Notes under the pieces: generated by a model
What the model was told of the DNA's origin: nothing
Databases searched by the model: none
The model's input: only the letters and a program-made list of their open reading frames with translations
Made by a program: the position numbers and the translations under genes
Part shown: positions 12,197 to 33,754 of the stretch, one piece after another
How positions within the stretch are numbered: the first letter of the stretch is position 1
Layout of the letters: every line of letters starts with the position of its first letter
Assembly: GCA_963714015.1 (NCBI GenBank)
Contig: OY970223.1
Span: 3,456,001 to 3,520,000 of the forward strand
Direction of reading: 5' to 3'
Length of the DNA: 64,000 nucleotides
Origin: Vulcanimicrobiota bacterium
Lineage (GTDB): Bacteria > Vulcanimicrobiota > Vulcanimicrobiia > Vulcanimicrobiales > Vulcanimicrobiaceae

Positions 12197-13512
12197 CGCT
12201 CGCCAAGGGCCGGCGGCTCTCGCTGCGCCGGTCCATGCGCACGCTGGCGATGTTTTTCTCCATCGTCGGTCCCGGCATCATTACCGCGAACGCCGACAAC
12301 GACGTCGGCGGCATAGCGACGTACTCGCTCGCCGGCGCGCAGTTCGGGTACGAGCTGCTCTGGTTGCTGATACCGGTGACGATCGCGCTGATCGTGACGC
12401 AGGAGATGTGCGCCCGCATGGGAGCGATTACCGGTAAGGGGCTTGCGGATTTGATCCGGGAGAACTTCGGCGTAAAGGTGACGTTCTGGGTTCTTCTGCT
12501 CTTCGTGTTCGGCGATCTCGGGAACACGGCGGCGGAGTTCGCCGGCATCGCAACGTCGGCACCCATTTTTCACAGTTACATTCCGCACGTGCTCAGCAAG
12601 GACGTCTTCACCGATCTGCTCGTGGCGCTGGCCGCGGCCGGCGTCTTCTCCGCCGTTACGCGCGGGAATTACAAGACCGTCGAGCGGGTCTTTTTCTTTT
12701 TCTGCTTCGTTTACGTCAGCTATGTCGTCAGCGGCATTCTGGTGCACCCCGACTGGGGGCAGGTATTCCGCCAAACGATCGTCCCGCACTTCACGCCGAC
12801 CAAGGCCTACGTCCTGATGGCAGTCGGCGTGATTGGAACGACGATCTCCCCGTGGATGCAGTTCTACATTCAGGCCGCGGTCGTCGACAAGGGCGTGGGC
12901 GAGGAGGAGTACGCGTACTCACGGACCGACGTCGTAGTGGGCTCGTTCGTCACGGATATCATCGCCTATTTCATTATCGTGTCGAGCGCCGCCACGATTT
13001 TCTTTCATAATCTCCACGCGGCCCATCCGCTGATGATCAATACCGTCGCGGACGTGGCCGCGGCGCTCGCGCCCTTGGCCGGCAAGTTCTCGGCGCTGCT
13101 CTTCGCGCTCGGTTTGCTGAACGCGGCGATCTTTACCGCCTCCATACTGCCGCTTTCGACGGCATACTACGTCTGCGAAGCGTTCGGATTCGAGCGCGGG
13201 GTCGATCACCGCTTCAAAGACGCGCGCGTTTTCTACATACTCTACGCCGCCCTCATTTTTATTGGGGCGGTCGCAGTCATCGTCCCGGGATCTCCGCTGC
13301 TCTTCATCATCTTCGGATCGCAGGTCCTCAACGGGATGCTGCTGCCCATCGTGCTCGTGCTCATGCTGCTTTTGATCAACAACAAGCGCCTAATGGGCCG
13401 TTGGACGAATGGGGTCGCATTCAACGTGATTGCTTGGACGACCGTAGTCATCGTCGGAATTCTGACGCTCGTCTCTACCGTTCAGTTGATCTTCCCCTCT
13501 GCGGGTTCTTAG
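12193..13512 (+). CDS. NRAMP-family divalent metal transporter, NRAMP-related Mg2+ transporter (NrmT) type
   Basis: TM1 GPGIITANADNDVGG (not DPGN), QEMCARMG, TM6 GTTISPWMQF (not MPH). ATGA-coupled to the MgtE-domain gene and under the M-box. Confidence 0.88.
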   Translation: MTLAKGRRLSLRRSMRTLAMFFSIVGPGIITANADNDVGGIATYSLAGAQFGYELLWLLIPVTIALIVTQEMCARMGAITGKGLADLIRENFGVKVTFWVLLLFVFGDLGNTAAEFAGIATSAPIFHSYIPHVLSKDVFTDLLVALAAAGVFSAVTRGNYKTVERVFFFFCFVYVSYVVSGILVHPDWGQVFRQTIVPHFTPTKAYVLMAVGVIGTTISPWMQFYIQAAVVDKGVGEEEYAYSRTDVVVGSFVTDIIAYFIIVSSAATIFFHNLHAAHPLMINTVADVAAALAPLAGKFSALLFALGLLNAAIFTASILPLSTAYYVCEAFGFERGVDHRFKDARVFYILYAALIFIGAVAVIVPGSPLLFIIFGSQVLNGMLLPIVLVLMLLLINNKRLMGRWTNGVAFNVIAWTTVVIVGILTLVSTVQLIFPSAGS

Positions 13513-17767: not shown

Positions 17768-19693
17768 GCGCCCCTTGGAATACGGGCGGCATCCGCTTCG
17801 TGAATCGCCGCCTGCAAGTCAGTCCCAAGGAACGGATTGGTCAAGCATGCGTTCCACGCCGCTCCGCCGTCCGAGTTGCCGCCGATGGCGATGAGCCCGA
17901 TGGCCGGCGTAGCCGAGGCGGCGCGTTTGACGAGCGGCGAGGCGTCGGCGGTAATAGTGTCGCGGTCGACGATGACGATGTCCGCCTGTTCCACGTCCAA
18001 ACGCTCGAGTGCGGCCGTAAGCGTCTTGTCGCGCCGCGAGGCATACCCGTGCGTGCGAAGTTCGTGGGAGAGATACTGGCCCAACGTGTCGTCCGCGGTT
18101 ATGGCGAGCACCCGCAGAACGCCGCCGCGTCCGTCGCGCATCCGCGGAAGCACGATCGTGAACGTGCTGCCTTCTCCCAGATTGCTTTGCACCTGAATGT
18201 TTCCGCCATGACGCTCGACCAGCGTCTTGGACAAGTAGAGTCCCAGGCCAGTGCCTTTGACGGGAGATCGCTTAGCGTTGGACGCGCGCGAAAAACGTTC
18301 GAACAAGAACTTCATCTCGTCCGGCGGAATTCCCATACCGCGGTCGTGCACCGCTACGCGCACGGTGGAATCGGTCTCCGTCACGCGCACTTCGATGGGC
18401 GCATCTTCAGCGGAATACTTGATTGCGTTGCCGATGACGTTCTCGAACACTTGCCGCAGTCTGGCGGGATCCCCCCGGACGACGGGGTCGGCGGCCTGAA
18501 CCGCCAGCTCGAATCTGGCGTTGGGGCAAGAGTGAGTCGACGGTATCCTTCACGATTTCGGCGACGTTCACCGGATCGGCCGCCAGATTCAGTTCACCTT
18601 GCTCCACGCGCGAGAGCGCAAGGGTGTCGTTCGCCATGTTCGCCAAGCGCATCGCCGACTGCCGTATCGTCCGCAGTGCACCGTCGGCCTCGTTGCCTTC
18701 GAGCGCGTGCTGCTCGAGCAGTTCCGTGAAGCCGATGATCGTCGTGAGCGGTCCCTTGAAATCGTGCGCGAGCACCGCAATCAGATCGTCCTTGAGTTGA
18801 TTCAATTGGATGACGCTGGCGCGCTGAGACTGGAGTTCGCCGAAGAGCGCGACGTTCTGTACGGCGATTCCGACGTACTGACGCAGCAGTTCCAACGCGA
18901 AGACGTCGTTTTCTCCGAACGGTTCTTCGACGTTGCTGATATCGAGAATCCATTCGTTGCGGCCGCTCGTGCCCGGGATCGGCAGCGCGAGCCGGCGCCG
19001 GTCTTTGGCGAGCTTGGGCTTGCGCGATTTGAATGCGTCGAGCAGAAAAGCATCTGCGGCGCTGCGCGAGCCTCCGGAAGATTCCGTGCAAACCAGTTCG
19101 CCCGAGCCGCGAAGCGCGTACAGCGAGACGTTTCCGCCCCACAAGCGGCGCGCTTCCGCCGCCAGCAGACCCACGACCGCGCGCACGTCGAGCGTCGCGA
19201 AGACCCGCCCGGCCGCATCCGCAAGGCGCCGCAGAATCTTGTTCTCTTCCTGCAGACGAGCCTCACCCGCTTCGAGACGATCCAGCAGCTGCTGCCGTTC
19301 GATTGCGTAGCGCAGCGCTCGGCGAAGTCCGGCATCGTCCACGCGGCCCTTGATCAAATAATCTTGAGCGCCCGCCTGCATCGCCGCCAGCGCCGTCTCC
19401 TCGTCGTCACGGCCGCTCAAAACGACGATCGGAACGCGTGGAAGCGCCTCGCGGACGCGTTTGACGCCTTCCGCGCCTTCGGCATCGGGCAGCGTGATGT
19501 CGAGCAGCACCGCGTCGAACGGCGACTCCTGCGCAAGCGAAAGCGCTTCATGGAGCCGCTTCGCAACTACGGTTTGGGGAGCATCGTCTCCGTGACGCAA
19601 ATATTGCGCCACGATGCGTGCGTCGGTCGAGCTGTCCTCAACGATCAGGACGCGCATTCGGCTCGCACTTCGGCTGTGCGCAGGATTTCCCAT
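17764..19693 (-). CDS. Hybrid sensor histidine kinase REC-GAF-HisKA-HATPase-REC (frameshift near 18513)
   Basis: RVLIVEDS..LLDITLPD receiver, AHDFKGPL H-box, NAIKYS, DRGMGI, GTGLGL. Alternative start 19657. Confidence 0.88.
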
Positions 19694-21060
19694 GCCCGGG
19701 CTACGTCGGCACGAGTCGTGCGCAGGTTTCCGATGGCCAAACGCAGCGCGAAGCGTCCGTCAACCTTCGTGTGCGAGAGGAAGATCTCGCCGCTCGCGTT
19801 CGCGCTTTCCATGATTCGCTGGTTCATCGCATCCAGCGCCGCTTGCGCAATCCCCGCCGGCGCATAACGAAAACACACGACGGAGAACGGGTGCGGCGCG
19901 AGGATCTCCCAATCCGGCTCCGACGCAACCCACGACGCAAATTCCTGCGCGAGCCGGATATGGCCGCGAAGATGCTCGCGCAGTCCCTCGGCGCCGAAAT
20001 ACCGCAGCACGAACCACAGTTTCAGCGCGCGAAAGCGCCTGCCGAGCTGCAAGCCGTAATCCATGTAGTTGCGCACGGACTCTTCGGGCGTGCGCAGATA
20101 CTCGGGCACCAGGCTGAAGGTGCGGCGCAGCAGCTCGGGATCCCGCACGTAGAGCGCCGAGCAGTCCATCGGAACGAAAAGCCACTTGTGCGGATTGACC
20201 ACCAGCGAATCCGCAGCCTCGGCGCCCGCCAGCACCCAGCGAAACTCGGGCATGATCGCCGCGACGCCGGCGTATGCGGCGTCGACGTGAAACCAAACTC
20301 CCCGTTCCCGAGCGATCTCGCCGATCGATTCAAGCGGATCGCGCGAAGTCGTGGACGTCGTTCCGGCGGTTGCGACGATGCACATGGGGCGCATCCCCGC
20401 GCCGGCGTCCGCGTCGATCCGCGCGCGCAGGTCGTCCGGACGCATCCGGAACTCTGCATCACATGCGATCGGGACGACGTTTTCCCGTCCGATTCCAAGG
20501 GCGATGCACGCCTTTTCGATATGCGAATGCGTGTGCTCGGTGATATATACGCGGAGCTCGGGAAGATCGCGGCCGGTCATTCCATGCGCGCGAATTCCAA
20601 GGTCCAGCGCTTCTCGCGCGGCTGCCAGCGCGGTGAACCCGCCGATGGACGCCGTGTCGTAAATGATTCCGGTAAACGTTTCGGGCAGTCCCATTAGCCG
20701 CCGCAGCCAAGTCATGACCACTTCTTCCAATTCCGTCGCCGCCGGCGAAGTGCGCCAGAGCATCGCCTTGACGTCCAATGCAGCAGCGAGCGCTTCCGCA
20801 GCCACGCCCACCGGCGCCGCGCTGGTGGCAAAGTAGGCAAAAAAGCGCGGACTGTTCCAATGCGTGATTCCCGGCAGGATAACGCGTTCGAAATCCGCCA
20901 TCAGTCCGTCGAAGGATTCGGCCCCCTCCGGAGCCGTTTGCGGAAGCTGCGCGGCGATTTCGCCGGGCTGCGTCTGCGCAAGCACCGGGTACGCTATCTC
21001 TCCGGAGAGGTAGCGGTCGATCCAGGCGTTGACGGCGGCGAACTCGTCCGTATAAGTCAC
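19645..21060 (-). CDS. Group II PLP-dependent (aromatic-L-amino-acid-type) decarboxylase
   Basis: PGITHWNSPRFFAYF, SPAATELE, HVDAAYAG, NPHKW, LGRRFRALKLW. Confidence 0.92.
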   Translation of the reverse strand: MTYTDEFAAVNAWIDRYLSGEIAYPVLAQTQPGEIAAQLPQTAPEGAESFDGLMADFERVILPGITHWNSPRFFAYFATSAAPVGVAAEALAAALDVKAMLWRTSPAATELEEVVMTWLRRLMGLPETFTGIIYDTASIGGFTALAAAREALDLGIRAHGMTGRDLPELRVYITEHTHSHIEKACIALGIGRENVVPIACDAEFRMRPDDLRARIDADAGAGMRPMCIVATAGTTSTTSRDPLESIGEIARERGVWFHVDAAYAGVAAIMPEFRWVLAGAEAADSLVVNPHKWLFVPMDCSALYVRDPELLRRTFSLVPEYLRTPEESVRNYMDYGLQLGRRFRALKLWFVLRYFGAEGLREHLRGHIRLAQEFASWVASEPDWEILAPHPFSVVCFRYAPAGIAQAALDAMNQRIMESANASGEIFLSHTKVDGRFALRLAIGNLRTTRADVARAWEILRTAEVRAECAS

Positions 21061-21487: not shown

Positions 21488-22676
21488 TCAGGGTTTCGCG
21501 GGCGGCGACGCAATCCGTCCGAGCGTTGCGAGCGATTCGCGCGCGAGGTCGCGGAACGTCGGCCAAATGTCTTGGGCTTCGGCCTGGCGATACTGGTCCT
21601 GCGCTTGCGCGTTCTGTCCCAGGCGGCGGTACGTTTCACCGAGCACGAAATGGAGTCGCCCGTCTTGCGGTGCGACGGCAAGTCCCTTGACTAGGGCGGC
21701 CTGCGCGAGTTGGTACAACCCGTGGTCGTCGTACGTCGTGCCCAGATCGATGTACGCTTCCGGTTGATACGGGTCGACGGTCATCGCCTGGACGTAATAC
21801 GCAATCGCCTTCTTCCAATCACCGCCGTCGTCTATGACGTTCCCCATGTTCACGAGAGCTTCCGCGCGCTCGGGTTCCAAGTTGCGCGCGACGGACAGCG
21901 CCTTTGCGGCATCCACGTCCTGGTGCATATCCAGGTACGTCGCTCCCATGTTCGTCCAGCAGTCGTAGTTGTAAGAGTCGTACAGCACGCACAGCTTGAA
22001 CTCGGTAATCGCTTCGTCGTCGGCGTGCTTGTCCTCGAGCGACATTCCCAGACCGTTGAGCGCGAAGAGCGAGCGCGGTTCGTAGTCGAGCACGCGCTGG
22101 AAGTACTGCATGGCCAGATCCGGCTGATTGATCGACTCGTACAGCTGCGCCAATTCCAGGATGGCCTCGTCGTCCCCAGGATAGTCGCGCACCATTTGTT
22201 GGCGTTCGCGTTTGTATTCGGGAAAGTCGCCCTTACGCAGATGCAGTTCCACCAGATTAGGAACGGAATCGGTGCCCGGCAGGCTGCGATTGAACTCTTG
22301 AATGGCGAGATCGATTTTGTTCTCGGTTGCGTACACGGATCCGAGGCGGCTGTGCGTCACTTTGTCGTTCGGCGCGTACTGCAGGATGCGTTGATACGAC
22401 GCTTGCGCCTGTTGAAGGTCGCCGTGACGAAAATAGAGATCGCCCAAGAGCCGTTCGGGTTCGGTATCCGTCGGGTGCGCCGCGACGAATGCAGCCGAGC
22501 TGCTTGAGTGCCCCGTCCAAATCGCCCGCGGCCACGCGCTCGCGAGCGGAGTCCATCGCCGACTGATCGGAAACCGTCGTTTGAGCCGGCCCGGCGGCAC
22601 AAATTCCCGGAGCCGCTACGATAACCCACAGAAGTGCGCCGGCCGCAAGGCCCGTCAAACGGCGCATGAAGATCAT
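21488..22676 (-). CDS. Secreted tetratricopeptide-repeat protein (frameshift near 22495)
   Basis: Signal peptide in ORF 22257..22676 joins a long TPR array in ORF 21488..22600. Confidence 0.82.
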
Positions 22677-22763
22677 CCTTTCAGGTCCATTCTATCGCGA
22701 AAGCGCTTAGGACGATAGCGTCGTGACCGAATGAGCGCGGCGCAAACTCGCGAAGCCATCCGC

Positions 22764-23066
22764 ATGAACACTGCGGAACTGGCTGCTTTGCTGGCGTCGT
22801 TCGTTTTCGGTGCCATTTTTGCGTTTATTTCGGCATTTCCCAGGAAAGCGCCGTCAGCCCGTCCGCCCCAGGCGAGCGAGCCCGCGATAACGTGGCCTGC
22901 GATGCTGGGGCTGGACGCGCGCTTGCGCATAGCGCTGGAGTTGGCGGCGCGGCAAGACCCGGCCGACATTCCGATGCTGCGGCAAGCCGTTTCCGAGGAG
23001 CAGGATCCCCGCATTCGCAGTCTTCTGGATCGGGCGTTGGCCCCGGTCATGGGTGAGCCCAAATGA
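22764..23066 (+). CDS. Small membrane-anchored protein with HEAT-like helices
   Basis: N-terminal TM segment, then IPMLRQAVSEEQDPRIR. ATGA-coupled to the next gene. Confidence 0.55.
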   Translation: MNTAELAALLASFVFGAIFAFISAFPRKAPSARPPQASEPAITWPAMLGLDARLRIALELAARQDPADIPMLRQAVSEEQDPRIRSLLDRALAPVMGEPK

Positions 23067-23509
23067 GCTCGCAGAGTTGGCTCGTGGTCGCGTTTGCCGG
23101 TACATCCGCCGGCGCCTATGCGGGAAATCTCGCCGCCGTCTTCTTCGGACGCCGCCGCATTACCGGACTGCCGTTCCCGGAGATCGTTACGGGCGGCGTC
23201 TTCTTCGCTGCGCAGCGCGGCTTTCCGAACGTCGAGCCGCTTACGATCCTTGCGGCGCTGTTTCTGACGATGGCCTGCGTGCAAATAGTTCGCGCTCGTG
23301 AAACGGCGGCGGACGCAAGGATACTGGCATTCGTTCCGCTCGCCGCGATGCTGCTGATCTGCATTCAGCAGATCTGTCCGCCGCAAACGGCCCCGCGATT
23401 GGAAGACGCGGTAGCGATTCTATTATGCGCCCCCGCGCCCGCGGCAGCAGTGTTCGGGCTAAGGAACCTTTACCTGGTACGAGAAGTCGCCTTCGATCGC
23501 GTTCGTTGA
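23063..23509 (+). CDS. Hypothetical multi-pass membrane protein
   Basis: Four to five hydrophobic segments. 3' end overlaps the convergent lectin gene. Confidence 0.5.
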   Translation: MSSQSWLVVAFAGTSAGAYAGNLAAVFFGRRRITGLPFPEIVTGGVFFAAQRGFPNVEPLTILAALFLTMACVQIVRARETAADARILAFVPLAAMLLICIQQICPPQTAPRLEDAVAILLCAPAPAAAVFGLRNLYLVREVAFDRVR

Positions 23510-25273
23510 ACTCGCGGGAGCGACTGCGTTCTTCAGCGTCCAGTCCAGCAGCGTCCCTTGACCTTGGAGCGAGGAAGCAAAGGCCGCGCTATTTGCCGAC
23601 GTTGGATTGGAGCAGCACGTGAACGCTTGCGTGCCGCTTTGATATATATAGTTCGGCGAAAGGAGATCTTCAAGAGCGGGTCCGCCCGAGCATGTTCCGC
23701 CGCCGCTCGCCGAACCGCACGCGTTTGCGTGCCGGTATTCGAAAAATAGACAGTGTACGTAACCAGATCGCCCGGATCGATGTTGGTCGTGGACGCGGTG
23801 CCGCTCAGGCCGGGCGAGCTTCCCGGATCGGGCGTCGGCGTAATCGTCTGCGGCGTGGAGTTGCCGTAGGAACGGACGATCTGCGTGATGCGTTTCCAAA
23901 TCGACATGAAGGGCGAGGCGGCGCCCACGTCGACGCTGTCGGTCGAACAGTCGGTGTAAGTTGCGCCGGTCGCGCTATACATGTCCGCGGAATAGACGCA
24001 GGCGGTATTGGCAATGACGCCGTTCGAGGTCGGTTTGACGGTCAAGGTGATCGCCGGAAGCGCGGTTCCGCTCGAGACGCCGGCAGGGTACGTGCATTGC
24101 ACCGGTGAGGCGGAATTGCACGTCCAGCCGCTCCCCGAGACGCTTACGAAGGTCTCTTTCGCCGGCAGCGTATCGGTCACGTAGATCGTCTGATCCGCGT
24201 TTCCGCCGCTGTTGTTCACGCCCGCTTGGATCGTGTACGCCTCGTTAGTGTTCCGGGTGAACGGCCCGTCGTGCTGTTTGGTAATCGTGAGATCCGGCGG
24301 GGCGTTATTCGCCACGAAGTTGCGGACTTCGTGAATGTCGTTTGCGCCTCCGGTGGACGCGGCCCAGCCGAATTTGAACGTCGGAGGGAATGCGGGTTGA
24401 CCGGCGATCGCGCTCAAATTCGTCGCGGGAATGACGTTTTGATAAGTCGCCCCCGTGCCGTTGGGATCCATGTCGACGGTAAGCACGTTCGAGGTGGAAA
24501 GAATGATCCGCACGCGAACTGCCGTCGGACGCGAAGTGCTCGAGTTGTTCGTCATGGTGAAGGGGAGCGATGATGCGACTCCGCCGCTCAAATATCCGGT
24601 AACGTAGTCGTACGACGTCGAAGCCGCGCCGCGCAGCGCGACGGTTTCGGAGACTTGCCCGGGGCCGCCAACTCGTCCCTCGGTGGGATTGGAGTAGTTG
24701 CCGTACGAATCGAAGCCGACGCCGACGAACCCGCCGACCAACCCCGGCGCGTCGCAGCAGCCCGTTCCGGATTTTTGCGCGTAGCCCAGCGATCCGCCGT
24801 TTGCGCCGGCGACCGTGGGTGAGTACGATCCGTCGATCAAAAAGAACGAGATGCCGTCGGCGCCCGTCCCGTTGTACATGAACATGTCGAAGATGACTTC
24901 GAGGCCCTGCAATTCGTTGAGCGACGTATTGTAGATCACGAAACCCGACTGATTGCCGCTGTTGTTCGTCAGGCGCAGCGCGCCGCTTCCCGACGTGTCG
25001 ATCGCGGGGCTCTGACATCCCGGAATTATCCCCGGCTGTGGCGACGGAGGCGGCGTGGCCGCAGTCAAACACGGAAACGCGCTGCTTCCGGTCGTACCGT
25101 AAATGAATCCGGGCGCCGCGCCGGTCATGAAAACTCGTTTGAAAGATCTGCGGCGGCGAGGTTGGCGCCGGCGTCGCCGCGATCGCGGGCATGCTGCCGA
25201 ACGGCGAACGTCCGAGCGCACAGGCACAGAAGAGGGCGGCGCCAAAAATCCCGGCCGCCGCGAGGCGGCGCAC
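23459..25273 (-). CDS. Secreted L-type (legume/ConA-like) lectin + two DUF11-like domains, putative tip adhesin (frameshifts near 25131 and 23730)
   Basis: Signal peptide. Lectin motifs GALRLT, GADGISFFL, GGSLGY, GVGFDSYGN, FGWAASTGGANDIHEV. DUF11 PDLTITK..VTDTLP..IANTA. Ends FSYQVKVP. Confidence 0.8.
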
Positions 25274-28200
25274 TATTTATTTCCCCAGCCGAAAATGCGA
25301 TCGACCAGAGTGGTCACGATCACGTAAAAGCCTCGATGCACGGCCTGACCCGTGAGCGTTGGATCGACGCTTCCCCGGAAGGAGTATCCGACCGCGGCGC
25401 GGGTGCCTTGACCGATGGCGTAGCCCGCTTCGGCCGCCAAGTCCGACGATTGAGCTGCCCGCAACGCCGGGAACGGCGAGGGTTCGAAACTCGGCGCCCA
25501 AGTCCGCGCGGCGGGAAACGTTCTTGCGCACGCGCAGTCCGAAAAGCGACGTATGCGCGACGTAGGTTCCATCGCCGTCCAATTTGTATGCGGCGCGTCC
25601 TGCAACCTCGATGCCCCATCCCGGACGCCAGAACTGTTCGAAGGAAAGCACGTCCGTCTGCGTGCCGGCGGAGATCGCGCCGGTTCCGCTCATACGGTCC
25701 CATCCGAAGAGTGAGATGAAACGATCGTTTTCATCGGGGCGAAATGCGAGCGAGAATCGATCGTCGGCGGACGTGACGCCGCCTGCCGTTGCTTGCTGAA
25801 TTGCCGCGACGGCGGAGACGTTGGGCGATACCGATCCTGCTAGGCCGGCGTCGATCGTGCTGCCGCCGCCGAGACCGCCGCGCGTTTGAAATGCCAGTCC
25901 ACCGCGCAGTTTGTCCGAGTTCGAGTAGGCCAGCGAGAATCCGGAAACCGAGAAACCGCCGGCGCCCGGGCCGGTCGCGTTGGCCGACTGCACGAAGAAA
26001 TTTCCCGCCAAGTGCGATGAAAGTTTGATCTTCTGCTGCACTCCGAGTGCGGAATAGATGTTCTCGCCGCTGCCGGTCTGATCGAGCAAATACTCGGAAC
26101 TAACCGTGGTGTCGCTGCCGATGGCGCGTTCGACGCCGATCGCGGTCGATCGCGTCGCCATTGCGCCGACCGTCAGATCGGAGGAAGACTGCGCAAAGCT
26201 CGCCACCGGCGCTCCGCTGATCAATTCCCGGATGAAGAGACGTCCCCGGGCGTCCATGTCGTAGTTCAGTCTGCGCCGTTGTTTCGTCCGGCTGCGTGGT
26301 GTCCTGATCGTTGCCGGTGACGGTCATCGATCGCTGCACCGTCAGTGAAACGCGCGAACCGGCTTTGACGTCGACGCCCGCGACGGCCTGCGTATTCGTT
26401 CCGCTCGCCGTACCAAGTGTGGGCGCCGGGGAGGACTGCCCGGCTTGTGCAAGCGAGACGTTGCTCTGCGTGTGCGAAGCTCAGCCCAAGCAGAACGGTC
26501 GCCGCCGAGCCGATCGCGTGCCGCCAATTGACCGATTCGGAGCGCTGCGCATCGGAGATGCCCAAGCCATGGTTCATCTGTCCGTCGAACTCAACCGCCA
26601 GGTTGTCGTTCTTGGGATCGCTGTGCGCCCACGCGGCACGGTACGAGGTGAAGCCGGGTACCGAGAGGCCGCCGAACGGATTGGCAAAGCCCGCAGAGGT
26701 GTCGGTAAAGTTGAGCGCCGTCTGATCCGAACCGGTCTTTTGGTTGTACTGAAACGCGAGTGCATCACCGCCGTTTCCGGGCGTCAGTTGCGAGGTAACG
26801 ATTCCAGGCGCAACACCGCTGCTCGAAGAGTGCGAGAGCGTCCAGCCGCCGCCGTTCACTTGACCGCTGAGCGTTTGGGAGAAGAGCGCAAAATTGTTCG
26901 ATCCCGTTGCGTCGTTCACGTAGCCGGCTTGGAGCCGCATGCTTTGCTGCGGCCCGAAATCTGCATGCACTACCGCGCCCGTCGTTTGCGAAGCGGTCGA
27001 AGGCCCCTGGTAAGCGTACTGCACGAGCACCGATTGCGGATTGAAATTATCGTCGAACGGCAACGGCACGTTGATGAAGCGCAGTACGCCCGTCGCGTAG
27101 TCGATGGTGTAGTCGACGTTGCGCTCCAGCGGCGTTTGGGAAACGACGCCTCCGGTGCGGCGATCGAGCGCAACCAGCGTCAGATAGTCGGAACCTACGA
27201 CGATGCCGGCGTGCAGCGGCTGCGCGAGCATCGAGAGCCCGCTCGCGGGAAAGACGAGTGAAACATAAGCCGTCGTATTCTTGGCCGTAAAAAGTTCCGC
27301 TTTTGCCGCGCCGCCCGGCATCGTATATCCCGCTTTGGCGCCCCCGAGCAGCTCGTGAAACGATCCCACGCCCGACGCATCCGGTATGTCTTCGTTGAAC
27401 TGTCCCAGCGTCAGATTGCTGCGTCCGGAATCTAGACGCGCAAACAGGCGCGTGTCGGAGTGGAAGTCGCTGGAGAGCGTCGAGGAATCGCCGTAAGTGA
27501 GATAAGGGCGCTCGTTCGGATCGTCGACGAACGGCCCATACGAAGACACGGGCGAGAGACGATTCTGCGACTCGTACGCGAGCGTCAAACTGCTCTGTTT
27601 GCCGACGCGTCCTTGCGCAAATAGCCCGATGCGTCCACGCCGGGCGCCGCCCTCGTCCGCCACGCCGTCGCCGTCCACCGTAATCGGCACGGCGCCCGCA
27701 CCGGCCGCAACGATTCCATTCACGAACGGCTTGCGCAAATACGGCTGCACGAAAAACGTCTGACTCTGCTCGATGTCGCCGCACGTAAGCTGAACCCGGA
27801 CGTCGCCGGCGAGCATGCCGGGAACGATTGGAACGGTTGCGCCTCCGCCAACGTCGAGCGAGATGTCGGAAAGGTGCGAGGGATCCGGCTGAGCCCCCGG
27901 CGTGCCGTCAGGCGGGGGCGATGCGCTGCTGAAAGGTTCGGGCGTCGGAAGCAGCGGCTTTTGAGACGTGGCGACGATAGTCGTCGCGGGATTGGAGAAG
28001 TGCGCTTCTCCCTCGGTGATTGCAATGTGAATGTCGGAACCGGGCTGCGCGGGGTGCCCCCAGCGATCGAGCGCGGTGATCGAGAGCGAGCGCGGCGTGC
28101 GTCCGTCCGCGACGAGCGGGCTATCGAGCTGCGCGCGCAAACTCGCCGGAACGCCTGGGCCGTAGATCGTGGCTCGCACCTGGGGGCCGCGCGCGCCGTT

Positions 28201-28596
28201 CAATCCCACCGGCGTAATCGTCACGTCGTTCGGGCCCGGTTTGAGCACGACGCCGTAATACTCGTACTGCGTCGCTCCCGATTTCACCGCGACGACGCGT
28301 TTGCCGATCTTGCTCGACGGCACGACTTCGCCGTCAATCTTCAGTTCCACGCCCGCGTCTCGCACCGTCGAGAGCACGAAGCGAACGGCGATGGTCGGGC
28401 TTGCGAATCCGTCGCTGGGAAAAACGAACGCTGCGTGCAGCGCCCCGGTTGCAGTGTACGTCAGGTGCGAGAGATCGCCGTAGACCGTCTTGTTGACGCC
28501 TGAATCGGCGCGCGTGAAAAGCACGCCGCAAAGCACAAACGTCGCTCCGACCAACACGAGCCCCGCATGCCGCAGCGCAGAGGCAAGACGCATCAT
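25273..28596 (-). CDS. Large outer-membrane beta-barrel protein with N-terminal Ig-like domains (about 3 frameshifts)
   Basis: Signal peptide, Ig-like N-domain (LKPGPNDVTI), YLTYGDSS and LERNVDYTIDYATGVLRF motifs, then a long amphipathic strand array ending GYSF...GFYVIVTT. Overlap-coupled to both neighbours. Confidence 0.78.
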
Positions 28597-30753
28597 GGTC
28601 CGCTCTCCACTGCGAAATTCACGTCCTGCATCAACCCGTCGTCAAAAATGCCATGCACCAACTGCTGGGCTTGGACGGGGTGAACGATTCCCGGCAGCGT
28701 TGTGAGGTCCAGCCGCAGCACGTGTTCGCCGGGGCGCACGCCCGGGAACGAAAAGCGCCCTTGACGATCCGTAGTGACGGACGATCCGTCTTCGAGATAG
28801 ATCCGGACGTTCTCAACGCCGCGGTCGCCGTAAGTGAAATGCCCGGTCTTGCGTTCGTCCAAAAAGACGCGGCCCGTGATGATGGAGCGATCGGTGAAGG
28901 CACCGGAGATCACCTGAACCGTTGCGGTCGCACTTGCCGTGGTCTGCGCCTGCGTGGCAGGCACACCGGCTTCAACCGTCACCGTATTGGCAAGTGACGT
29001 GTTCGCGGAAACGCTGGGATAGACGACGGCGTAATAGGTTATCGTATGACTCTCGCCGGCTGCAAGTCCCGAACGCGTCCATATCAGCGTATTTCCTTGA
29101 ACGCTCGGTTCGAGCGGCGCGCCGTCGAGTTTTGCCGTTCCGGAAGCGTACACCAATCCCGGCGGCATCACGTCGACAATCTTCACGGCCCCCAGCGGCG
29201 CGTGCGATTGATTGGAGAAACCTACCGTGTATCCAACCCGATCGCCCGCTTCCACGACTTGGCGATCGACGGTCTTCTGCACCTGAATCGTGCGCGTCGA
29301 GAAAAGCGGCAGATTGCCGAACAAGCCGAAGACGTTCTGAAGCTGCACGGAGTTGCTGGTAAGCGCATAACCTCCGGCAATCGCGAGCGGTTGGCCGTCC
29401 AGCGCGGTAGCGCGCACGTCGTAAAGCAGGCTCTGTTCGTCGAGCCTGATGTCGAGCTGAATGCGCCGGTTCAGATATCCCGGCGCGTTGATGAGCAGGT
29501 AAAAGCGCGAACCGGCCGATGCGATTTGCGCAGGCTGCAGCGCAAAACCGTACGTGCCGTTCGTCCCCGTGACGACCGGGTTCTGCGTCCCCGGCGTCTG
29601 CGAGCCGCCGGATTGCGTCTTTGAAGATCCCGATTCTCCCGAGTTCAGATTCACGGGACTCCCCGCGGAGTCGAGCAGCGTCACGACCGCTCCGGAGACC
29701 GGCATCCCGGCGCCGCCGTAGCCGTCGAATACCACGTTGGTCGAACCGAGCAGCACGGACGCGGGCGTCGTCGTAATCGGCGTGATGCCGTCCGCGGCGA
29801 TCGTGGCGACGTTCACGAACGTCGCTCCAAGGGACTGTTCATTCTGCACGACGGCGTTGAACGAAAAATCCAACTGCGCGCCGGGGCCGACTGACGGGAC
29901 TTTCAGCGTTGATGGTCTGGCCGGAAAGGGACGCTTCCGATCCGGCAGGCTGGCCGTTGACTTCGGCGCTGGAGAGTACCGGCGCAAGACCTTGCGGCAC
30001 GGCGTCGCTGACGATCACGCCGGTTGCCGCCGATCCGCCCGAGTTTTCGGCCGTCACGTCAAACGTCACGGTCGATCCGCCGCCGGACTGCACGCTGACC
30101 TGGTGGTCGACCGTCTTTGTAACCTTCGTGTCGGCGCCGCCCGGGCCGTTGAGCGATGCGCCTGCGGCGATCGCGATCCACGCCTCTCCCGTGTCGCTCT
30201 GCAGCCCGTTCGACGTACCGCTTGCGGTGGTTTGGGCGCTAAGCGTCACTTCGATAGCGATTGCCCGATCGCCAGTCCGTTTGTGACGACCGTCACCCGA
30301 ACCGCGATCGTTCCGCCGGCCGGCACCATCGGCGAAATGGAGGATCCCACGGCGATCGGGAGCGGTCCGCCGGGGGTGATGAAGACCAGAGATGCGATCT
30401 TTCCCGCCGAGACGTTTGCCGCAGTAATGCGGTACGCATCCGTGATGTTGCTCGTATTGGAAATCGTGAACGTGCGTACGGCGCTCTGTCCCTGCGGCAC
30501 TGCGTCCGCGGGCGCGGCTTTGCTTTCCTTCGGCGAGACGACGATCGAGCCGACTTGTGCGACGGTACTGTCGATATCGGTTCGATTCGGTCACGTACGT
30601 GCGGCCTTCGCGGTCCTGAAACGTGGCCGTGGCAGCGTTAATCAGCACCGTTCCGCCCGGCGTAGAAGACGCTGCGCCGTGTCCGCTCGCTGCAAGCACG
30701 AACAAGAACACGGCGCACGCTGTCGATGGCCCTCTGCGGCGAAGGCGATTCAC
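28593..30753 (-). CDS. Secreted multi-DUF11 protein with C-terminal Cna-B/SdrD-B-like domain, putative base/anchor subunit (about 3 frameshifts)
   Basis: Signal peptide, TPGGTVLINAATATF N-terminal strand, two complete DUF11 domains, C-terminal IITGRVFLD...TTDRQGRFSF...LDLTTLP. Confidence 0.78.
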
Positions 30754-30774
30754 GACTCTCCGTTAGACCGCGAT

Positions 30775-33106
30775 CTACTTCACCACGACGGAGAAAGCGA
30801 TCGTCCCGAATTGGCCTGCGCCGAGCGAGAAGCCGGCACCGCCGATGGTTACTGAGAATGCTGCAGAACCGATGTTGTTGGTCGTCCAAACGTCGCCGCT
30901 GTTCCAGGTTCCGCCGCCGCCCGGCATATCGGTTGCAGCCGCGGAGAGGCCGTTCGTATTGGCCGCCCAAGTGTTGCCGATCGTCGTGCCGTCATCGGTA
31001 AGGGTGAGTTGTCCCGGCTTTGGTTGCGACGAAGGCATTCGCAGGCTCGGTGTTGCCGCTGCCGCCCGGTTACTGCGACGTTGCGATAGTCGATCGAGTA
31101 CGTGAGCGTTCCGCCCGGGCAGAGCGAACCGGCGGCGTAACCCGGAGAAGTGCCCGCGGGACATCCGGACGAAGTGACCGTTACGCTCTTCGTCAAGGCG
31201 ATGAACCCGCTATACAGCTCGTTGTGCGTCGTATTGGCTTGCGTGTTGTCATTCACCGACGTGGCGGCGATCGACGCATCGAAGCGCGAGAACGTGGCGA
31301 TGCCGGACGGCGAATTGTAGACCGCCCAGTACTGGATCGCTTGCCCCGATCCGACTGCAATGGTGGCGGTACAGGTCGCGGCAGGACTCGTACACCCCGC
31401 GTACGGGCTCGCTGCCGGGCCCGGTTCCGGAACCGTTGTCCGGGAACAGTTGCACGGTCCATCCGCCCGACGGGGCGGCTGCAACGACGGTATACGAGTC
31501 GTCTTTGTTTCCCGAGTTGTAGAGCGCGTTGGCAACGTTCGATGCCGTTGACTGCGGAGGTGTACGTATTTCCGCTCGGCGCGCCTATAACGGTGCTCGA
31601 ATTGATCGACGTGAAGCGCGATCGGCGTGAACGAGACTTGCGTGAAGTCGTCGTTGGCGTTGACTCCGACGCTGCCGTCATACGAACCGGTCGCCTGCGA
31701 GTTGGTGATCAGCGTCGACATGGTGCGTGGGCGTCGAGCTCGACGGTCCGTTGAAAACGCCGGCGGCCAAATGCGCCGTAGTTCACCGTCGTGTTGGACC
31801 AGCCGTTTCCGCCGCTGCTTCCCGATCCGGGCGGTACCACGGGCGGGTAGTTGATGCCCTGGTTGGCTGCGTAGATTGGCGCCGCGCCGCCGCTGTCGGC
31901 AGTGCCGGCCGGGATGTTGCCGCCGTCGATGTGTTCGGTGGGTTGGTTGTCGCCGAAAATCGACGTCGCGACGTTTTGATAAGCGTTCGGATTGGCGGAA
32001 CCGGAACCGGTAGGCTGCGGCATCGCGAACTGCAGCTGAATCGCGGCTTGCGCGTTGGAAACGTTTCCGGCGCTCGTGCCGGAATGCGAATTCAGGCACG
32101 CCGTTCCGGAACGTCACGCTCAAGAAGACCGCAATGTATGCCGGATTCGACGGGGCGCTTGTCGTCCATCCGCTGCTGCCGTTCGCCGACGTCGTGTAAT
32201 AGATCGTCGCGCTGACTCCGCTGGACGGGAAGCCGTTCGTGCCGGCCGTATAGGTAATGCGTCGGCGTTCCCACCAAACTCGGCGGGGTTGCACCGAACA
32301 CCGGCAGCTTGTCGACGATTGCCAAGCAGCCTTTAGTCGGGAAGCCCATCGCCGTTACGGAGTTGAGCTGCTGCGAGGAGAACGCGCCGCCGTTGTTCGC
32401 ATTGACGGTATAGGTGATGTTGTACGGCGACGATCCCGCCCTGAGAAGACGTCTTCTGCACGTCCATGCGGGCATCGCTTTGTACGGTATCATTGTAAGT
32501 GTTCGAAATCGCTGCGGACGTTACGGCGCCGGCGGAACCTGCGGCGGCGTACGCGACGGTGGCCTTCAGCTGCGTCGTGACCGTGCCGGGGACGTTTGCC
32601 GGGCTCGACGACAACGTGTACTGCACTTGAACCGTAATCGAGCTGCCGCTGGCAGTCGCGGATGCTGAAGCCAAGGCTGTATTGAGCGCCGCGACGGTCG
32701 AGTACGTCGTACTGTTGTAAACGAACTGAACGCTGCTCGTATTGCCGTTGTCGTTACCGCTGCCCTCAACGCCGTTGTCCGACGCGCCGGTCGTGAGCCC
32801 AAAATTGCCGGCCGCATTGCCGGTATTGGTAAGGGTGTAGGTGTCGGTTACGACCTGACCCGGAGCAATCGTTTGCGAGCCTGCCGAGGAGCCGTTGTTG
32901 GTCGTAACGGTGAGCGACGGGGCATTCTGGACGATCGTCGTGACCGTGTTGGACTCCGTCGTGTAGGAGTTTCCGTTCGCGTCTTTGTACGTCGCGCTCG
33001 CGGTATTTTGAATGCTGGTGTTCGGAGGCGTCTCCGAAGCGTGCGCGTATAGCGCCGGCGATGCCAGCGCCGCAAAAAACACTATCGAGAGGAGCGCGCG
33101 CTTCAC
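30775..33106 (-). CDS. Secreted beta-strand-repeat/DUF11 protein, putative major pilus subunit (many frameshifts, reconstructed by eye)
   Basis: Signal peptide, TPPNTSIQNTASATY N-terminal strand, internal DUF11 (MDVQKT..IVDKLP..YQNVAT), C-terminal domain ALTKSV..LTYSIDYRN..LTDDG..GTIAFSVVVK-stop. Confidence 0.75.
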
Positions 33107-33604
33107 TTGACGCGCACCTCGTAGCTGTAGCGAGTCGCGTGCTTGGGCGCGAGCGCGCGCTGCGCCGTCCAGCGTATGGCGACGTATTGTTCCGGCGGCG
33201 CCGGTTTCTCAACCGGTCCGCGGCTCGTGTTGACGACGATCGTCGGGTGCGTCGAAAAGCGCTTGCCGTCGAGCGAAAATTCCACGAGCGCTCCCTGCCC
33301 GAAGGCAGTTCCCCCGACGTATTCGGTGCGTTGCGGTACGGGGCCGACCGTGCTCAATGCTACCGCGGGCTTTGCCCCCGCGTTGGAAGCGACGATCGTA
33401 TAACGAACGAGGTCGCCTTTCTTGAGAACCGCCTTTTGCACCGGCGTGGCGACGGTTTTTCCGTCCGATATCGCCAGTAAGTCGCCGCTGAGCTGCAGTT
33501 TTACCGCAGGGCGCGGTGGTGCGCTTTGCGGAGCTTGCGAATACCGGTGAAGCAGCAGACAGCAAAAAAGCCGACGTCAATAAAAGCGGGCGTCCGAGAA
33601 CCAT
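33103..33604 (-). CDS. Small secreted single-domain DUF11-like protein, putative chaperone (one extra A near 33526)
   Basis: SD AAAAGGA and signal peptide. GDLVRYTIVASNAG, GPVPQRTEYV, FSLDGKRFS, YVAIRW, YEVRVK-stop. Confidence 0.8.
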
Positions 33605-33727
33605 ACACTATCCTTTTCATCCGACGGACAGCACACCCGGGCGTCGTTAACTCAATCTAGTATCGGATAGCGTTTCGTTCGACCAGAGCTCCATACGAAT
33701 ACTTTATACAAACACTTAACGCCGCCT

Positions 33728-33754
33728 AAACAAAAGAGCCCACATGGGCTCTTT
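33728..33754 (-). terminator. Intrinsic terminator downstream of nuoN
   Basis: Minus strand AAAGAGCCC-ATGT-GGGCTCTTT followed by TGTTT. Confidence 0.8.

What the first reader, a model, noticed from the sequence alone, without database searches (positions are those of the whole stretch)
23459..33604. Five-gene DUF11 operon with the architecture of a self-crosslinking donor-strand pilus
Seen in sequence (reconstructed across frameshifts): complete internal DUF11 domains carry Lys on the first strand, Asp in 'xxDxLP' and Asn on the last strand (DLTITK/VTDTLP/IANTA; MDVQK/IVDKLP/YQNVA; KVTK/VSDAVP/FVNVA; QVQK/IVDVMP/LANTV). The C-terminal domains of the large subunit (ALTK..LTDDG..FSVVVK-stop) and of the lectin protein (SIWK..LEDLLSP..YQVKVP-stop) keep Lys and Asp but stop before the Asn strand. 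The mature N-termini of two genes supply such a strand (TPPNTSIQNTASATY, Asn codon 33005-33007; TPGGTVLINAATATF, Asn codon 30637-30639). Established: Lys-Asp/Glu-Asn triads form spontaneous isopeptide bonds in Cna-type Ig folds, and donor-strand complementation builds chaperone-usher pili. Inference: a sortase-independent covalent fibre (lectin tip, repeated major subunit, base subunit) exported by the co-encoded barrel. I recall similar DUF11 clusters in cyanobacteria and Deinococcus but cannot verify whether this mechanism has been described.
Basis: partly seen in the sequence, partly recalled or inferred. Interest (0 to 1): 0.9.

Follow-up and report, generated by a model that had tools for sequence, protein, structure and literature searches.

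The report
Split-domain surface fibre operon, Eremiobacterota
A conserved five-gene operon of a soil bacterium seems to build a surface fibre whose subunits plug into one another by completing a split antibody-like domain, probably locked by a self-made covalent bond; this way of building a fibre has not been described for bacteria with an outer membrane.

Summary
All 20 quoted peptide motifs and both Asn codons lie where stated. The 19 frameshifts are mostly single extra bases. Short-read contigs lack the extra base at 7 of them, and 10 relatives carry intact operons, so the genes are probably whole.

Gene order is A (small single-domain protein), B (major subunit), C (base), D (about 1,110 aa, beta-barrel-like), E (lectin tip). 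B and C start, after the signal peptide, with a two-strand hairpin. Its Asn aligns to the isopeptide-Asn column of complete DUF11 domains in 45 of 47 cases (12 of 47 shuffles). A, B and E all end just before that hairpin. The acceptor domains keep Lys (37 of 39) and an acid (37 of 39).

Natural C-D fusions are common (58 of the 150 best D relatives). Giant DUF11 adhesins sit next to D-like genes in Phyllobacterium and Vibrio.

The likely reading is a modular, outer-membrane-anchored fibre joined by trans-completion of a split Ig-like domain, perhaps isopeptide-locked. I found no description in print.

The parts
33103..33604 (-). Gene A: signal peptide plus one truncated DUF11-like domain (about 167 aa), ending ...YEVRVK-stop. 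It has no donor hairpin. One frameshift near 33526.
   Evidence: The orthologues are intact and 161-207 aa long. In all 22 A orthologues no residue aligns to the Asn tail of the DUF11 profile. The Asp column reads G 11, D 6, A 3, E 1, V 1 of 22.
30775..33106 (-). Gene B: major subunit (about 775 aa). It consists of signal peptide, donor hairpin, three Ig-like/CnaA-like domains and a C-terminal acceptor domain ending FSVVVK-stop. Ten frameshifts near 32437, 32259, 32111, 31780, 31725, 31616, 31540, 31422, 31067 and 31015.
   Evidence: The AF2 model of the G001 orthologue has pLDDT 80.1. Domain 2 resembles the isopeptide pilins PitA (Z 9.9) and BcpA (Z 9.7).
32924..33037 (-). B donor hairpin (mature residues 24-61). 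The Asn34 codon is 33005-33007.
   Evidence: N34 is invariant in 22 of 22 B sequences. It aligns to the Asn column of complete DUF11 domains in 23 of 23. The model shows two strands, 31-41 and 47-58.
30778..31210 (-). B acceptor domain. Lys of ALTK is at 31188-31190. The first Asp of LTDDG is at 30994-30996. The chain ends after the FSVVVK strand.
   Evidence: Lys is present in 22 of 23 B and the acid in 22 of 23 B. K637 is at least 90% conserved.
28593..30753 (-). Gene C: base subunit (about 720 aa). It consists of signal peptide, donor hairpin (Asn codon 30637-30639), two complete DUF11 domains with Lys/Asp/Asn, beta-sandwich domains, and an SdrD_B/CarboxypepD_reg-like C-terminal module ending ...DVNFAVESGP-stop. 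It has no acceptor domain. Three frameshifts near 30579, 30250 and 29910.
25273..28596 (-). Gene D: about 1,110 aa. It has an N-terminal hydrophobic helix, Ig-like domains, then some 40 long beta-strands, giving a large outer-membrane-barrel-like fold. It belongs to no Pfam or NCBIfam family. Three frameshifts near 26481, 26270 and 25459.
23459..25273 (-). Gene E: tip protein (about 604 aa). It consists of signal peptide, L-type lectin domain, one complete DUF11 domain and a truncated DUF11 acceptor domain: SIWK Lys at 23893-23895, Asp of LEDLLSP at 23666-23668, ending YQVKVP-stop. It has no donor hairpin. Two frameshifts near 25132 and 23726.
   Evidence: Eight intact homologues (589-620 aa) all end after the same strand and keep Lys (8 of 8) and Asp (8 of 8).
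33733..33754 (.). Palindrome with flanking T/A runs between nuoN and gene A. It is a likely terminator of the nuo operon, so the fibre operon probably has its own promoter in 33605-33732.
   Evidence: This is a pattern match only.

Best explanation
The operon encodes a modular cell-surface fibre of a diderm bacterium (Candidatus Baltobacteraceae, Eremiobacterota/Vulcanimicrobiota). It is a split-up version of a widespread two-part system, in which a long DUF11-type stalk adhesin is encoded next to a large D-family outer-membrane protein.

The stalk has been cut into subunits inside an Ig-like domain.
- The C-terminal domains of A, B and E stop just before the last two strands.
- The mature N-termini of B and C consist of exactly those two strands. 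The first of them carries the Asn that forms the Lys-Asn isopeptide in complete DUF11 (CLIPPER) domains.

Each junction is rebuilt in trans. From the cell outward the order is: D, then C (base, donor only, held at or in D by its C-terminal module), then one or more B (donor plus acceptor), then a donor-less cap. The cap is either E (lectin adhesin) or A.

The acceptor Lys and acid and the donor Asn would then react spontaneously and lock the joint. This is a natural counterpart of SpyTag/SpyCatcher, and of the 'exchange and lock' proposed for BsaA.

A lacks conserved Lys and Asp. It is read as a non-covalent decoy acceptor: either a periplasmic keeper of free hairpins or a minimal distal cap.

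Shown here: gene content, domain grammar, conservation, C-D fusion, and that the frameshifts are assembly errors. Inferred: trans insertion (about 0.65), the covalent bond (about 0.45), repetition of B, and export through D.
For: 1. Grammar. A profile of 48 complete DUF11 domains from C orthologues has Lys in 46 of 48, Asp in 46 of 48 and Asn in 47 of 48. The B and C hairpins match its tail in 46 of 47 cases, against 14 of 47 shuffles. Their Asn falls on the Asn column in 23 of 23 B and 22 of 24 C, against 12 of 47 shuffles. Lectin-type acceptors run to about profile position 95 of 130 and then the protein ends. A and lectin acceptors have no residue in the tail.

2. Distribution of roles. The donor motif is found in 22 of 23 B, 20 of 25 C, 0 of 17 E and 0 of 22 A. 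A, B and E end ...F.V.VK.

3. Triad. Acceptor Lys is present in 22 of 23 B and 15 of 16 E. The acid is present in 22 of 23 B and 15 of 16 E. Lectin tips keep Lys in 8 of 8 and Asp in 8 of 8. Donor N34 is invariant in 22 of 22.

4. Base and anchor. Of the 150 best D relatives, 58 are at least 1,500 aa long with the D module at the C-terminus. The 5 whose full sequences I read (P0169, P0171, P0179, P0183, P0190) have a C-like N-terminal part; 3 of these 5 start with a signal peptide and a donor hairpin, P0179 appears to lack its N-terminus, and P0190 instead has a long run of DUF11-type repeats. Of the 58, 28 start with signal peptide plus donor motif by the strict pattern, and further ones have near variants. 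C's C-terminal module recurs at the end of giant DUF11 adhesins encoded directly before D-like genes in Phyllobacterium and Vibrio campbellii.

5. The operon A-B-C-D(-E) is intact in 10 relatives of two families and in further loci. The same logic, with small subunits, occurs in a distant low-GC genome.

6. D has Ig-like domains plus long beta-hairpins that match outer-membrane barrels. The one cultured member of the phylum is diderm (PMC9758169, passages read).

7. No Sortase, PapD_N or Usher family was found in the genome.

8. In the AF2 model of B the hairpin forms two 11-12-residue strands (pLDDT 66-79). Structural hits to domain 1 begin at residues 58-65, that is, after the hairpin.

9. 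DUF11 isopeptide chemistry is established (PDB 9IFR: Lys715/Asp748/Asn806; PMC12617251, passages read).
Against: - No structural test of trans insertion could be run: complex prediction was never available. The single-chain model output does not say what the hairpin packs against.
- B's C-terminal domain, and that of the E type found in relatives, is not demonstrably DUF11. Pfam gives no hit. My profile finds 0 of 23 B and 1 of 16 E at E<0.01. hhalign aligns 20 columns at probability 32%.
- That domain has a nearly invariant Asp (D723). It could form a cis Lys-Asp bond, or the Lys and acid could be structural.
- Individual hairpin-to-profile scores are weak (E 0.008-0.5), in the range of the shuffles. 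Only their consistent placement is informative.
- One hairpin would have to fit two unrelated acceptor types (lectin-type E and B-type). That needs promiscuity.
- One B orthologue has Ala at the Lys column and one has Asn at the acid column.
- The D model is poor (pLDDT 58, pTM 0.36), and its barrel hits are generic and tied.
- There are no expression or protein data.
Confidence: 0.55

Rival explanations
1. The fibre is the same modular fibre built by strand complementation, but the joints are non-covalent, as in chaperone-usher or TasA fibres. The conserved Lys, acid and Asn would be structural hydrogen-bond partners, or the Lys would bond in cis.
For: The survey of isopeptide domains notes that some DUF11 domains lack the bond (PMC12617251, passages read). 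D723 is a nearly invariant possible cis partner. A, which lacks Lys and Asp, still has the same truncated shape, so binding need not be covalent.
Against: The donor Asn is invariant and sits on the isopeptide column. Acceptor Lys and acid are kept in 37 of 39 domains each and in 8 of 8 lectin tips. The same triad is reactive in complete domains of this fold.
Confidence: 0.17
2. There is no trans completion. A, B, C and E are separate secreted or surface proteins that use D as exporter or anchor. The N-terminal hairpin belongs to the chain's own first domain, or is a recognition signal for D. The C-terminal domains are compact, complete variants.
For: B's acceptor is not recognisably DUF11. Compact seven-strand relatives (DUF7507) exist (PMC12617251). 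AF2 folds the C-terminal domain of B with pLDDT 62-91 in a single chain.
Against: - A signal for D would be expected on A and E too, yet it is found in 0 of 39 of them.
- It would be needless in C-D fusions, which nevertheless keep it.
- The hairpin aligns to the end, not the start, of a domain.
- Canonical DUF11 acceptors (lectin tips, A) end about 35 profile positions early.
- Structural hits to domain 1 begin after the hairpin.
Confidence: 0.2
3. The operon is a decaying pseudogene cluster, and the 19 frameshifts are real.
For: The frameshifts are concentrated here, while the flanking nuo genes are open. Genome completeness is 89.6%.
Against: - Seventeen of the 19 are single extra bases.
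- There are no in-frame stops, and identity to relatives is kept.
- Near-identical short-read contigs lack one base at 7 sites that lie within 10 nt of 7 mapped frameshifts.
- Orthologues are intact.
Confidence: 0.03

Closest known systems
CLIPPER / DUF11 domains of fibrillar adhesins (PF01345; PDB 9IFR)
   Same: Same fold family for C's two internal domains, E's middle domain and, more weakly, A. The same Lys / Asp / Asn triad sits on the first strand, the 'D.LP' strand and the penultimate strand.
   Different: The known bond is intramolecular, inside one long polypeptide. Here the Asn strand sits on another chain, so the bond would be intermolecular. The survey paper does not mention split or donor-strand forms: the terms 'donor', 'split' and 'strand complementation' occur 0 times.
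Chaperone-usher pili (type 1, P pili)
   Same: An N-terminal extension of one subunit completes the incomplete Ig fold of its neighbour. There is a two-domain lectin tip without a donor, a terminator/base subunit without a usable acceptor, and a large outer-membrane protein encoded in the operon.
   Different: PapD_N and Usher families were not found. Two strands are donated rather than one. The joint is possibly covalent. The subunits are 700-800 aa and multi-domain. The accessory protein A looks like an acceptor, not a strand-donating chaperone.
Clostridium perfringens BsaA (TasA family) 'exchange and lock'
   Same: An N-terminal donor strand carries Asn, the acceptor carries Lys, and a nearby Glu is present. 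Mutants lose oligomers (PMC11580942; abstract and section 8 read).
   Different: The fold is unrelated (TasA / camelysin-like). The organism is a monoderm. Processing is by SipW and secretion is linked to type IV pili. There is no outer-membrane barrel.
Sulfolobus acidocaldarius threads
   Same: Donor-strand complementation plus an intermolecular isopeptide involving Asn (PMC9715654, passages read).
   Different: It is archaeal. The bond runs from Asn57 to the alpha-amino group of Asp24 of subunit n+2. There is no Lys, no DUF11 and no barrel.
SpyTag/SpyCatcher (engineered split CnaB2 domain)
   Same: A peptide strand completes a truncated Ig-like domain and is locked by a spontaneous isopeptide. 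This comparison is from my own knowledge and from the search listing of PMC6539128.
   Different: It is man-made, uses a CnaB fold with a Lys-Asp bond, and donates a single strand.
Sortase-assembled Gram-positive pili (BcpA, PitA, RrgB)
   Same: Multi-domain pilins with CnaA/CnaB domains. B's domain 2 resembles PitA (Z 9.9, rmsd 3.3, 144 aligned) and BcpA (Z 9.7, rmsd 2.9, 128 aligned). C hits NCBIfam RrgB_K2N_iso_D2.
   Different: No sortase was found. There is no LPXTG: the chains end ...VK. The organism is diderm.

Membership tests
DUF11 / CLIPPER (PF01345, TIGR01451) | Profile match over the curated cut-off | tested here: met
   Met for C (51.1 bits in the window, 67-75 bits in orthologues) and for E (37.5 bits). 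A scores 20.5 against 24.6 bits in Pfam, but its G018 orthologue scores 33 against 24 bits in TIGR01451. B gives no hit at E<=0.01 and none at E<=10 for its hairpin or C-terminal domain. Membership therefore holds for C, E and marginally A, but not for B.
DUF11 / CLIPPER (PF01345, TIGR01451) | Lys (first strand), Asp ('D.LP') and Asn (penultimate strand) within one domain | tested here: met
   The complete domains of C orthologues have K in 46 of 48, D in 46 of 48 and N in 47 of 48. The terminal domains of A, B and E lack the Asn strand in cis.
Chaperone-usher pili | PapD-like periplasmic chaperone | tested here: not met
   PF00345 gives 0 matches in the genome (one contig, completeness 89.6%). 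No such Pfam hit occurs in the operon proteins.
Chaperone-usher pili | Usher (PF00577) outer-membrane pore | tested here: inconclusive
   PF00577 gives 0 matches in the genome, and D has no Pfam hit. The D model aligns to the FimD pore (Z 14.3, rmsd 10.2, 333 aligned) and to PapC (Z 13.8). These are tied with Tom40, VDAC, MtrB and porins, and the model has pLDDT 58.
Chaperone-usher pili | Incomplete Ig fold completed by a neighbour's N-terminal extension | tested here: inconclusive
   The sequence grammar fits.
Sortase-dependent pili | Sortase gene and C-terminal LPXTG sorting signal | tested here: not met
   PF04203 gives 0 matches. A, B and E end ...VK or similar, and C ends ...NFAV....
TasA/BsaA donor-strand fibres | TasA-family fold and SipW-type signal peptidase | tested here: not met
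   No TasA-family Pfam hit occurs in any operon protein. SipW was not searched for.
Type V secretion (autotransporter, two-partner, intimin/invasin) | 12-16-strand barrel families or POTRA-bearing TpsB | tested here: inconclusive
   D has no Pfam or NCBIfam hit of any kind. Its N-terminal Ig-like part resembles intimin D0-D1 (Z 12.1, rmsd 1.9, 94 aligned). CdiB and TamA appear among the tied barrel hits. The passenger-then-barrel order of the C-D fusions resembles an autotransporter.

The most novel reading that the evidence does not exclude
This would be an unrecognised, widespread class of surface fibre in diderm bacteria. Subunits polymerise without sortase or chaperone-usher machinery, by a natural 'SpyTag/SpyCatcher' reaction: a two-strand N-terminal hairpin completes a truncated CnaA-like domain of the neighbour and becomes isopeptide-locked. 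The fibre is rooted in a new family of giant outer-membrane barrels (2,760 cluster representatives). A catalytically dead decoy acceptor (A) keeps the reactive hairpins quiet in the periplasm or caps the fibre.
Probability: 0.4. Interest if true: 0.9.

Novelty: new variant of a known kind. Interest (0 to 1): 0.8.

Why it matters
If true, this adds a further way of building pili in bacteria with an outer membrane. It would be donor-strand assembly as in chaperone-usher pili, but made irreversible by the self-catalysed chemistry so far known inside Gram-positive pilins and DUF11 adhesins.

- It would explain how soil phyla without cultured models (Eremiobacterota, Acidobacteriota and others) make very robust adhesive fibres.
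- It would give a function to a large family of about 1,100-aa outer-membrane proteins that belongs to no Pfam family and is the partner of DUF11 adhesins.
- It would show how a giant adhesin can evolve into a polymer by being cut inside a domain.
- It would supply natural, orthogonal peptide/domain ligation pairs for protein engineering.

Tried and rejected
The job was not sent on. The tool was finally declared unavailable. No co-fold exists, so there is no support or refutation from it.
- The search of earlier findings was not open.
- Pfam scans of the isolated B hairpin and of B's C-terminal domain gave nothing at E<=10.
- hhalign of the B/E-type acceptor against complete DUF11 domains gave only a 20-column match at probability 32% (one divergent row, E of L042, was left out).
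- My DUF11 profile found the B-type acceptor in 0 of 23 at E<0.01.
- The D profile against PDB sequences gave 0 hits at E<=1.
- Foldseek on the D model gave LptD and TonB-dependent receptors at TM 0.14-0.28 only. The VIA-wide search gave tied generic barrels. No specific family can be named.
- The ESM Atlas gave unnamed clusters for D and DUF11-type small proteins for A.
- Runs X2 and X3 held only short unrelated pieces, and their joints are from other organisms. Twelve of the 19 frameshift sites were not shown to be covered by X1.
- The E type found in relatives (AgmC_N-like N-terminus, 82 bits against a cut-off of 275) is absent from this genome, and there is only one such operon.
- Literature searches found no description of a split DUF11 pilus. 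Hits for 'DUF11' in the tafi paper are DUF1102. The Litorilinea fibre is one 6,596-aa DUF11 protein.
- Supplements of the papers were not opened.
- I considered that the conserved C-terminal Lys (...VK-stop) is the reactive Lys. I rejected it as the less likely reading, because canonical DUF11 uses the first-strand Lys. This was not tested.

Full report
**What is there.**

On the minus strand of window 33604-23459 lie five co-directional genes with overlapping or abutting ends.

- A (33604-33103) is a signal peptide plus one Ig-like domain.
- B (33106-30775) is a multi-domain protein of about 775 aa.
- C (30753-28593) is about 720 aa. It has two Pfam DUF11 domains and an SdrD_B/CarboxypepD_reg-like end.
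- D (28596-25273) is about 1,110 aa and has no Pfam, NCBIfam or PDB-sequence match.
- E (25273-23459) is about 604 aa. It has an L-type lectin domain, one complete DUF11 domain and a further truncated domain.

Upstream lie nuoN and nuoM, which are intact, and a terminator-like palindrome at 33733-33754. Downstream lie an ORF without a family, a TPR protein and a PLP-dependent decarboxylase.

**The frameshifts are assembly errors.**

I aligned the intact same-genus orthologues, and a 90%-identical intact homologue of E, to the DNA while allowing frame changes. This gave 19 frameshifts: A 1, B 10, C 3, D 3, E 2.

- Seventeen of the 19 are single extra bases. One (23726) looks like a single missing base. 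One (30250) is a two-base skip that I did not resolve further.
- A fourth site reported for C (30763) lies in a spurious upstream extension of the query and is not counted.
- There are no in-frame stops.
- The genome is one 3.56-Mb contig with 89.6% marker completeness.
- Contigs of a soil-metagenome short-read run (X1) are near-identical to the window. They leave out one base at 26477, 30576, 31414, 31541, 31626, 31725 and 31779. Each of these lies within 10 nt of a mapped frameshift.
- The other 12 sites were not shown to be covered.

Ten relatives from two families of the class carry the operon with open genes. In the sample of 41 genomes, 19 have a D homologue. I therefore treat the genes as whole and used the intact orthologues for everything that needs a protein.

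**Who carries it.**

Named records place the window's close relatives in Candidatus Baltobacteraceae (Eremiobacterota / Vulcanimicrobiota). The one cultured member of the phylum has a typical Gram-negative envelope with an outer membrane (PMC9758169, passages read).

**The domain grammar.**

In complete DUF11 domains of the C orthologues the order is as follows.

1. A first strand with Lys.
2. A 'PGD..tYti...N.G' hairpin.
3. 'vvvtDtLP' with Asp.
4. '...tvtf.a.V'.
5. 'l.NvAtv', carrying Asn.
6. A last strand that leads into the next domain.

A profile built from 48 such domains has Lys in 46 of 48, Asp in 46 of 48 and Asn in 47 of 48.

The mature N-termini of B and C read 'GT.I.N.A.A.Y.D..G..Y...SN.V...V'. 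This is the last two strands only, followed directly by the first strand of the chain's first full domain.

- By a strict pattern this motif is present in 22 of 23 B, 20 of 25 C, 0 of 17 E and 0 of 22 A orthologues.
- The six misses have near variants. One C orthologue (L036) has Ser instead of Asn.
- Against the profile, the hairpins' best match falls in the tail (positions 95-130) in 46 of 47 cases, against 14 of 47 shuffled copies.
- Their Asn lands on the Asn column in 23 of 23 B and 22 of 24 C, against 12 of 47 shuffles.
- The individual scores are weak (E 0.008-0.5). The consistent placement is what counts.

Conversely, A, B and E all end right after the '...F.V.VK' strand.

- Lectin-type acceptors can be followed along the profile to about position 95 of 130, where the protein stops.
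- None of the 22 A or 8 lectin acceptors has a residue in the tail.

So the chains are cut two strands before a domain boundary. B is a cyclic permutation of the usual repeat, E and A have only the open domain, and C has only the plug.

**The triad.**

- The donor Asn (N34 of B) is invariant in 22 of 22 B sequences.
- In the aligned C-terminal domains of B and of the E type found in relatives, the first-strand Lys is present in 22 of 23 B and 15 of 16 E.
- The acid of 'ITEDG' is present in 22 of 23 B and 15 of 16 E.
- Eight intact homologues of the window's lectin E (589-620 aa; the closest is 90% identical) keep Lys in 8 of 8 and the 'D.LP' Asp in 8 of 8. All end after the same strand.
- A is different. 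Its Asp column reads G 11, D 6, A 3, E 1, V 1 of 22. The first-strand Lys is not kept either, as seen by eye in 10 sequences and.

That DUF11 forms a spontaneous Lys-Asn bond with a catalytic Asp is established by a crystal structure (9IFR; PMC12617251, passages read).

**C belongs to D.**

A profile of D finds 2,760 cluster representatives at E<=0.001, of which 1,108 are at E<=1e-30.

- Of the 150 best, 58 are at least 1,500 aa long with the D module at the C-terminal end.
- I read the full sequences of 5 of these. All 5 have a C-like N-terminal part. Three (P0169, P0171, P0183) start with a signal peptide and a donor hairpin followed by DUF11, a beta-sandwich, DUF11 and an SdrD_B-like module. 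P0179 appears to lack its N-terminus. P0190 instead has a long run of DUF11-type repeats.
- Of the 58, 28 begin with signal peptide plus donor motif by the strict pattern, and more have near variants.
- Sources name some of them, in Acidobacteriota, as 'isopeptide-forming domain-containing fimbrial protein'.

In a Phyllobacterium plasmid a giant 'DUF11 domain-containing protein' is followed directly by a D-like gene. In Vibrio campbellii an adhesin of more than 2,600 aa is followed by a D-like gene and an OmpA-like gene. Both adhesins end with the same module as C: 'G.pGVR...TD..GRY......lD..tLP.g......NF'.

In a distant low-GC genome (L050) the same logic is written with small subunits of 329 and 382 aa. 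Each has a donor start and a truncated DUF11 end. There is also an A-like protein, a donor-less 1,018-aa tip, and a barrel protein that additionally carries OmpA domains.

Hence D is the general outer-membrane partner of DUF11 stalk adhesins. C is the barrel-proximal end of such a stalk. The operon in the window is a version in which the stalk has been cut into pieces.

**Folds.**

The D model is poor overall (pLDDT 58, pTM 0.36).

- It shows Ig-like domains at residues 55-290 and some 40 long strands from 297 to 1099. The last 480 residues score 70-85.
- Its C-terminal half aligns to many outer-membrane barrels with tied scores: Tom40 and VDAC Z 14.5, FimD pore Z 14.3, MtrB 14.2, PapC 13.8.
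- The N-terminal part aligns to intimin D0-D1 (Z 12.1, rmsd 1.9 over 94 residues).
- Foldseek gives LptD at TM 0.2-0.28.

This supports 'large outer-membrane barrel with Ig-like domains' and nothing more specific.

The B model is good (pLDDT 80.1, pTM 0.59).

- The hairpin forms two strands, 31-41 and 47-58, with pLDDT 66-79. The C-terminal domain scores 62-91.
- Domain 2 resembles the isopeptide pilins PitA (Z 9.9) and BcpA (Z 9.7), and the Cna/ACE/RspB adhesins (Z 8.1-8.7).
- Hits to domain 1 begin at residues 58-65, after the hairpin.

The output does not show what the hairpin packs against.

**What is against the reading.**

- The decisive test, co-folding acceptor and donor, could not be run.
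- B's acceptor domain is not demonstrably a DUF11.
- A nearly invariant Asp (D723) in it could take the Lys in cis.
- One hairpin must fit two unrelated acceptor types.
- Nothing here shows that B is repeated, that D is the export route, or that the genes are expressed.

**Most likely mechanism.**

After Sec export the subunits meet at D. C is held by its C-terminal module at or in the barrel, and its N-terminal hairpin points outward. B's open C-terminal domain closes over that hairpin. B's own hairpin is taken by the next B, or by a donor-less cap, which is the lectin protein E or A. Lys, acid and Asn then react and make each joint covalent.

Whether growth is at the base (tip first, as in chaperone-usher pili) or at the tip cannot be told.

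A is more conserved than B (37-49% against 29-36% identity to the reference) and lacks the reactive residues. It is best read as a decoy acceptor that either holds free hairpins reversibly or acts as a minimal cap. This is inference.

**Comparison and novelty.**

- It works like chaperone-usher pili in the logic of donor strand, lectin tip and terminator. It is not a member of that family: no PapD_N or Usher family was found.
- It works like BsaA of C. perfringens and the Sulfolobus threads in adding an isopeptide lock to strand donation (PMC11580942, abstract and section 8; PMC9715654, passages). The fold, the bond partners and the envelope all differ.
- It uses the chemistry of CLIPPER/DUF11, but between chains.
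- No sortase was found.
- Eight literature searches turned up no description of such a system. The 2025 survey of isopeptide domains does not mention split or donor-strand forms. Papers outside the held library, and supplements, were not seen.

I rate it a new variant of a known kind, with a fair chance of being a distinct pilus class.

Noticed in passing
window 23459-33604 against its flanks: All 19 frameshifts of this stretch fall inside the five fibre genes, while the neighbouring nuoN/nuoM genes and other long genes of the window are open. Seventeen of the 19 are single extra bases, and they are not confined to long homopolymers. This suggests a local consensus problem, for example strain variation in a surface-protein locus, in a long-read assembly.
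   Followed up: partly
L052 (Phyllobacterium sp. T1293 plasmid pT1293b) 1-11661; L051 (Vibrio campbellii LJC015) 143-12477: D-family barrels also sit directly after giant single-chain DUF11 adhesins in cultured Proteobacteria. In Vibrio an OmpA-like gene follows. The D-like gene is annotated 'outer membrane protein transport protein' or 'TonB-dependent receptor'. This looks like an undescribed adhesin/barrel pairing in its own right.
   Followed up: partly
L050 326-13072: A low-GC metagenome genome (labelled Pseudomonadota) has a miniature version. It has two small subunits (329 and 382 aa) with a donor start and a truncated DUF11 end, an A-like protein, a 1,018-aa donor-less tip with DUF7933/DUF7507 domains, and a 2,032-aa barrel protein with two OmpA domains.
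   Followed up: partly
L013 14459-17197 and E orthologues of relatives: The fifth gene is swapped between lineages. Most relatives have a 780-970-aa tip whose N-terminus weakly resembles the AgmC gliding-motility N-domain (82 bits, cut-off 275). This genome has an L-type lectin tip instead. One locus (L024) has two tips in tandem, and several loci have none.
   Followed up: partly
genome C1:728362-733133 (outside the window): This is a second locus with four DUF11 matches in open frames of 275-976 aa. It is unrelated to the operon: A, B, C, D and the E of relatives find nothing there.
   Followed up: partly
window 33733-33754: A perfect 9-bp-stem palindrome (AAAGAGCCC ACAT GGGCTCTTT) with flanking T/A runs lies between nuoN and gene A. 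It is a likely two-way terminator. The adjacency of nuo to the fibre operon is kept in at least three relatives (L011, L012, L013).
   Followed up: no
window 22673-23386 (-): A 237-aa ORF directly downstream of E has no Pfam family. It is followed by a TPR-repeat protein (21488-22600) and a PLP-dependent decarboxylase (19645-21060). Whether the first belongs to the operon was not examined.
   Followed up: no
B orthologues, column of D723 (L011 numbering): A nearly invariant Asp sits in a loop of the acceptor domain ('AATDT'), beside an invariant Trp (W710) and Cys (C646). Its role is unknown. It could be a cis bond partner or a metal site.
   Followed up: no
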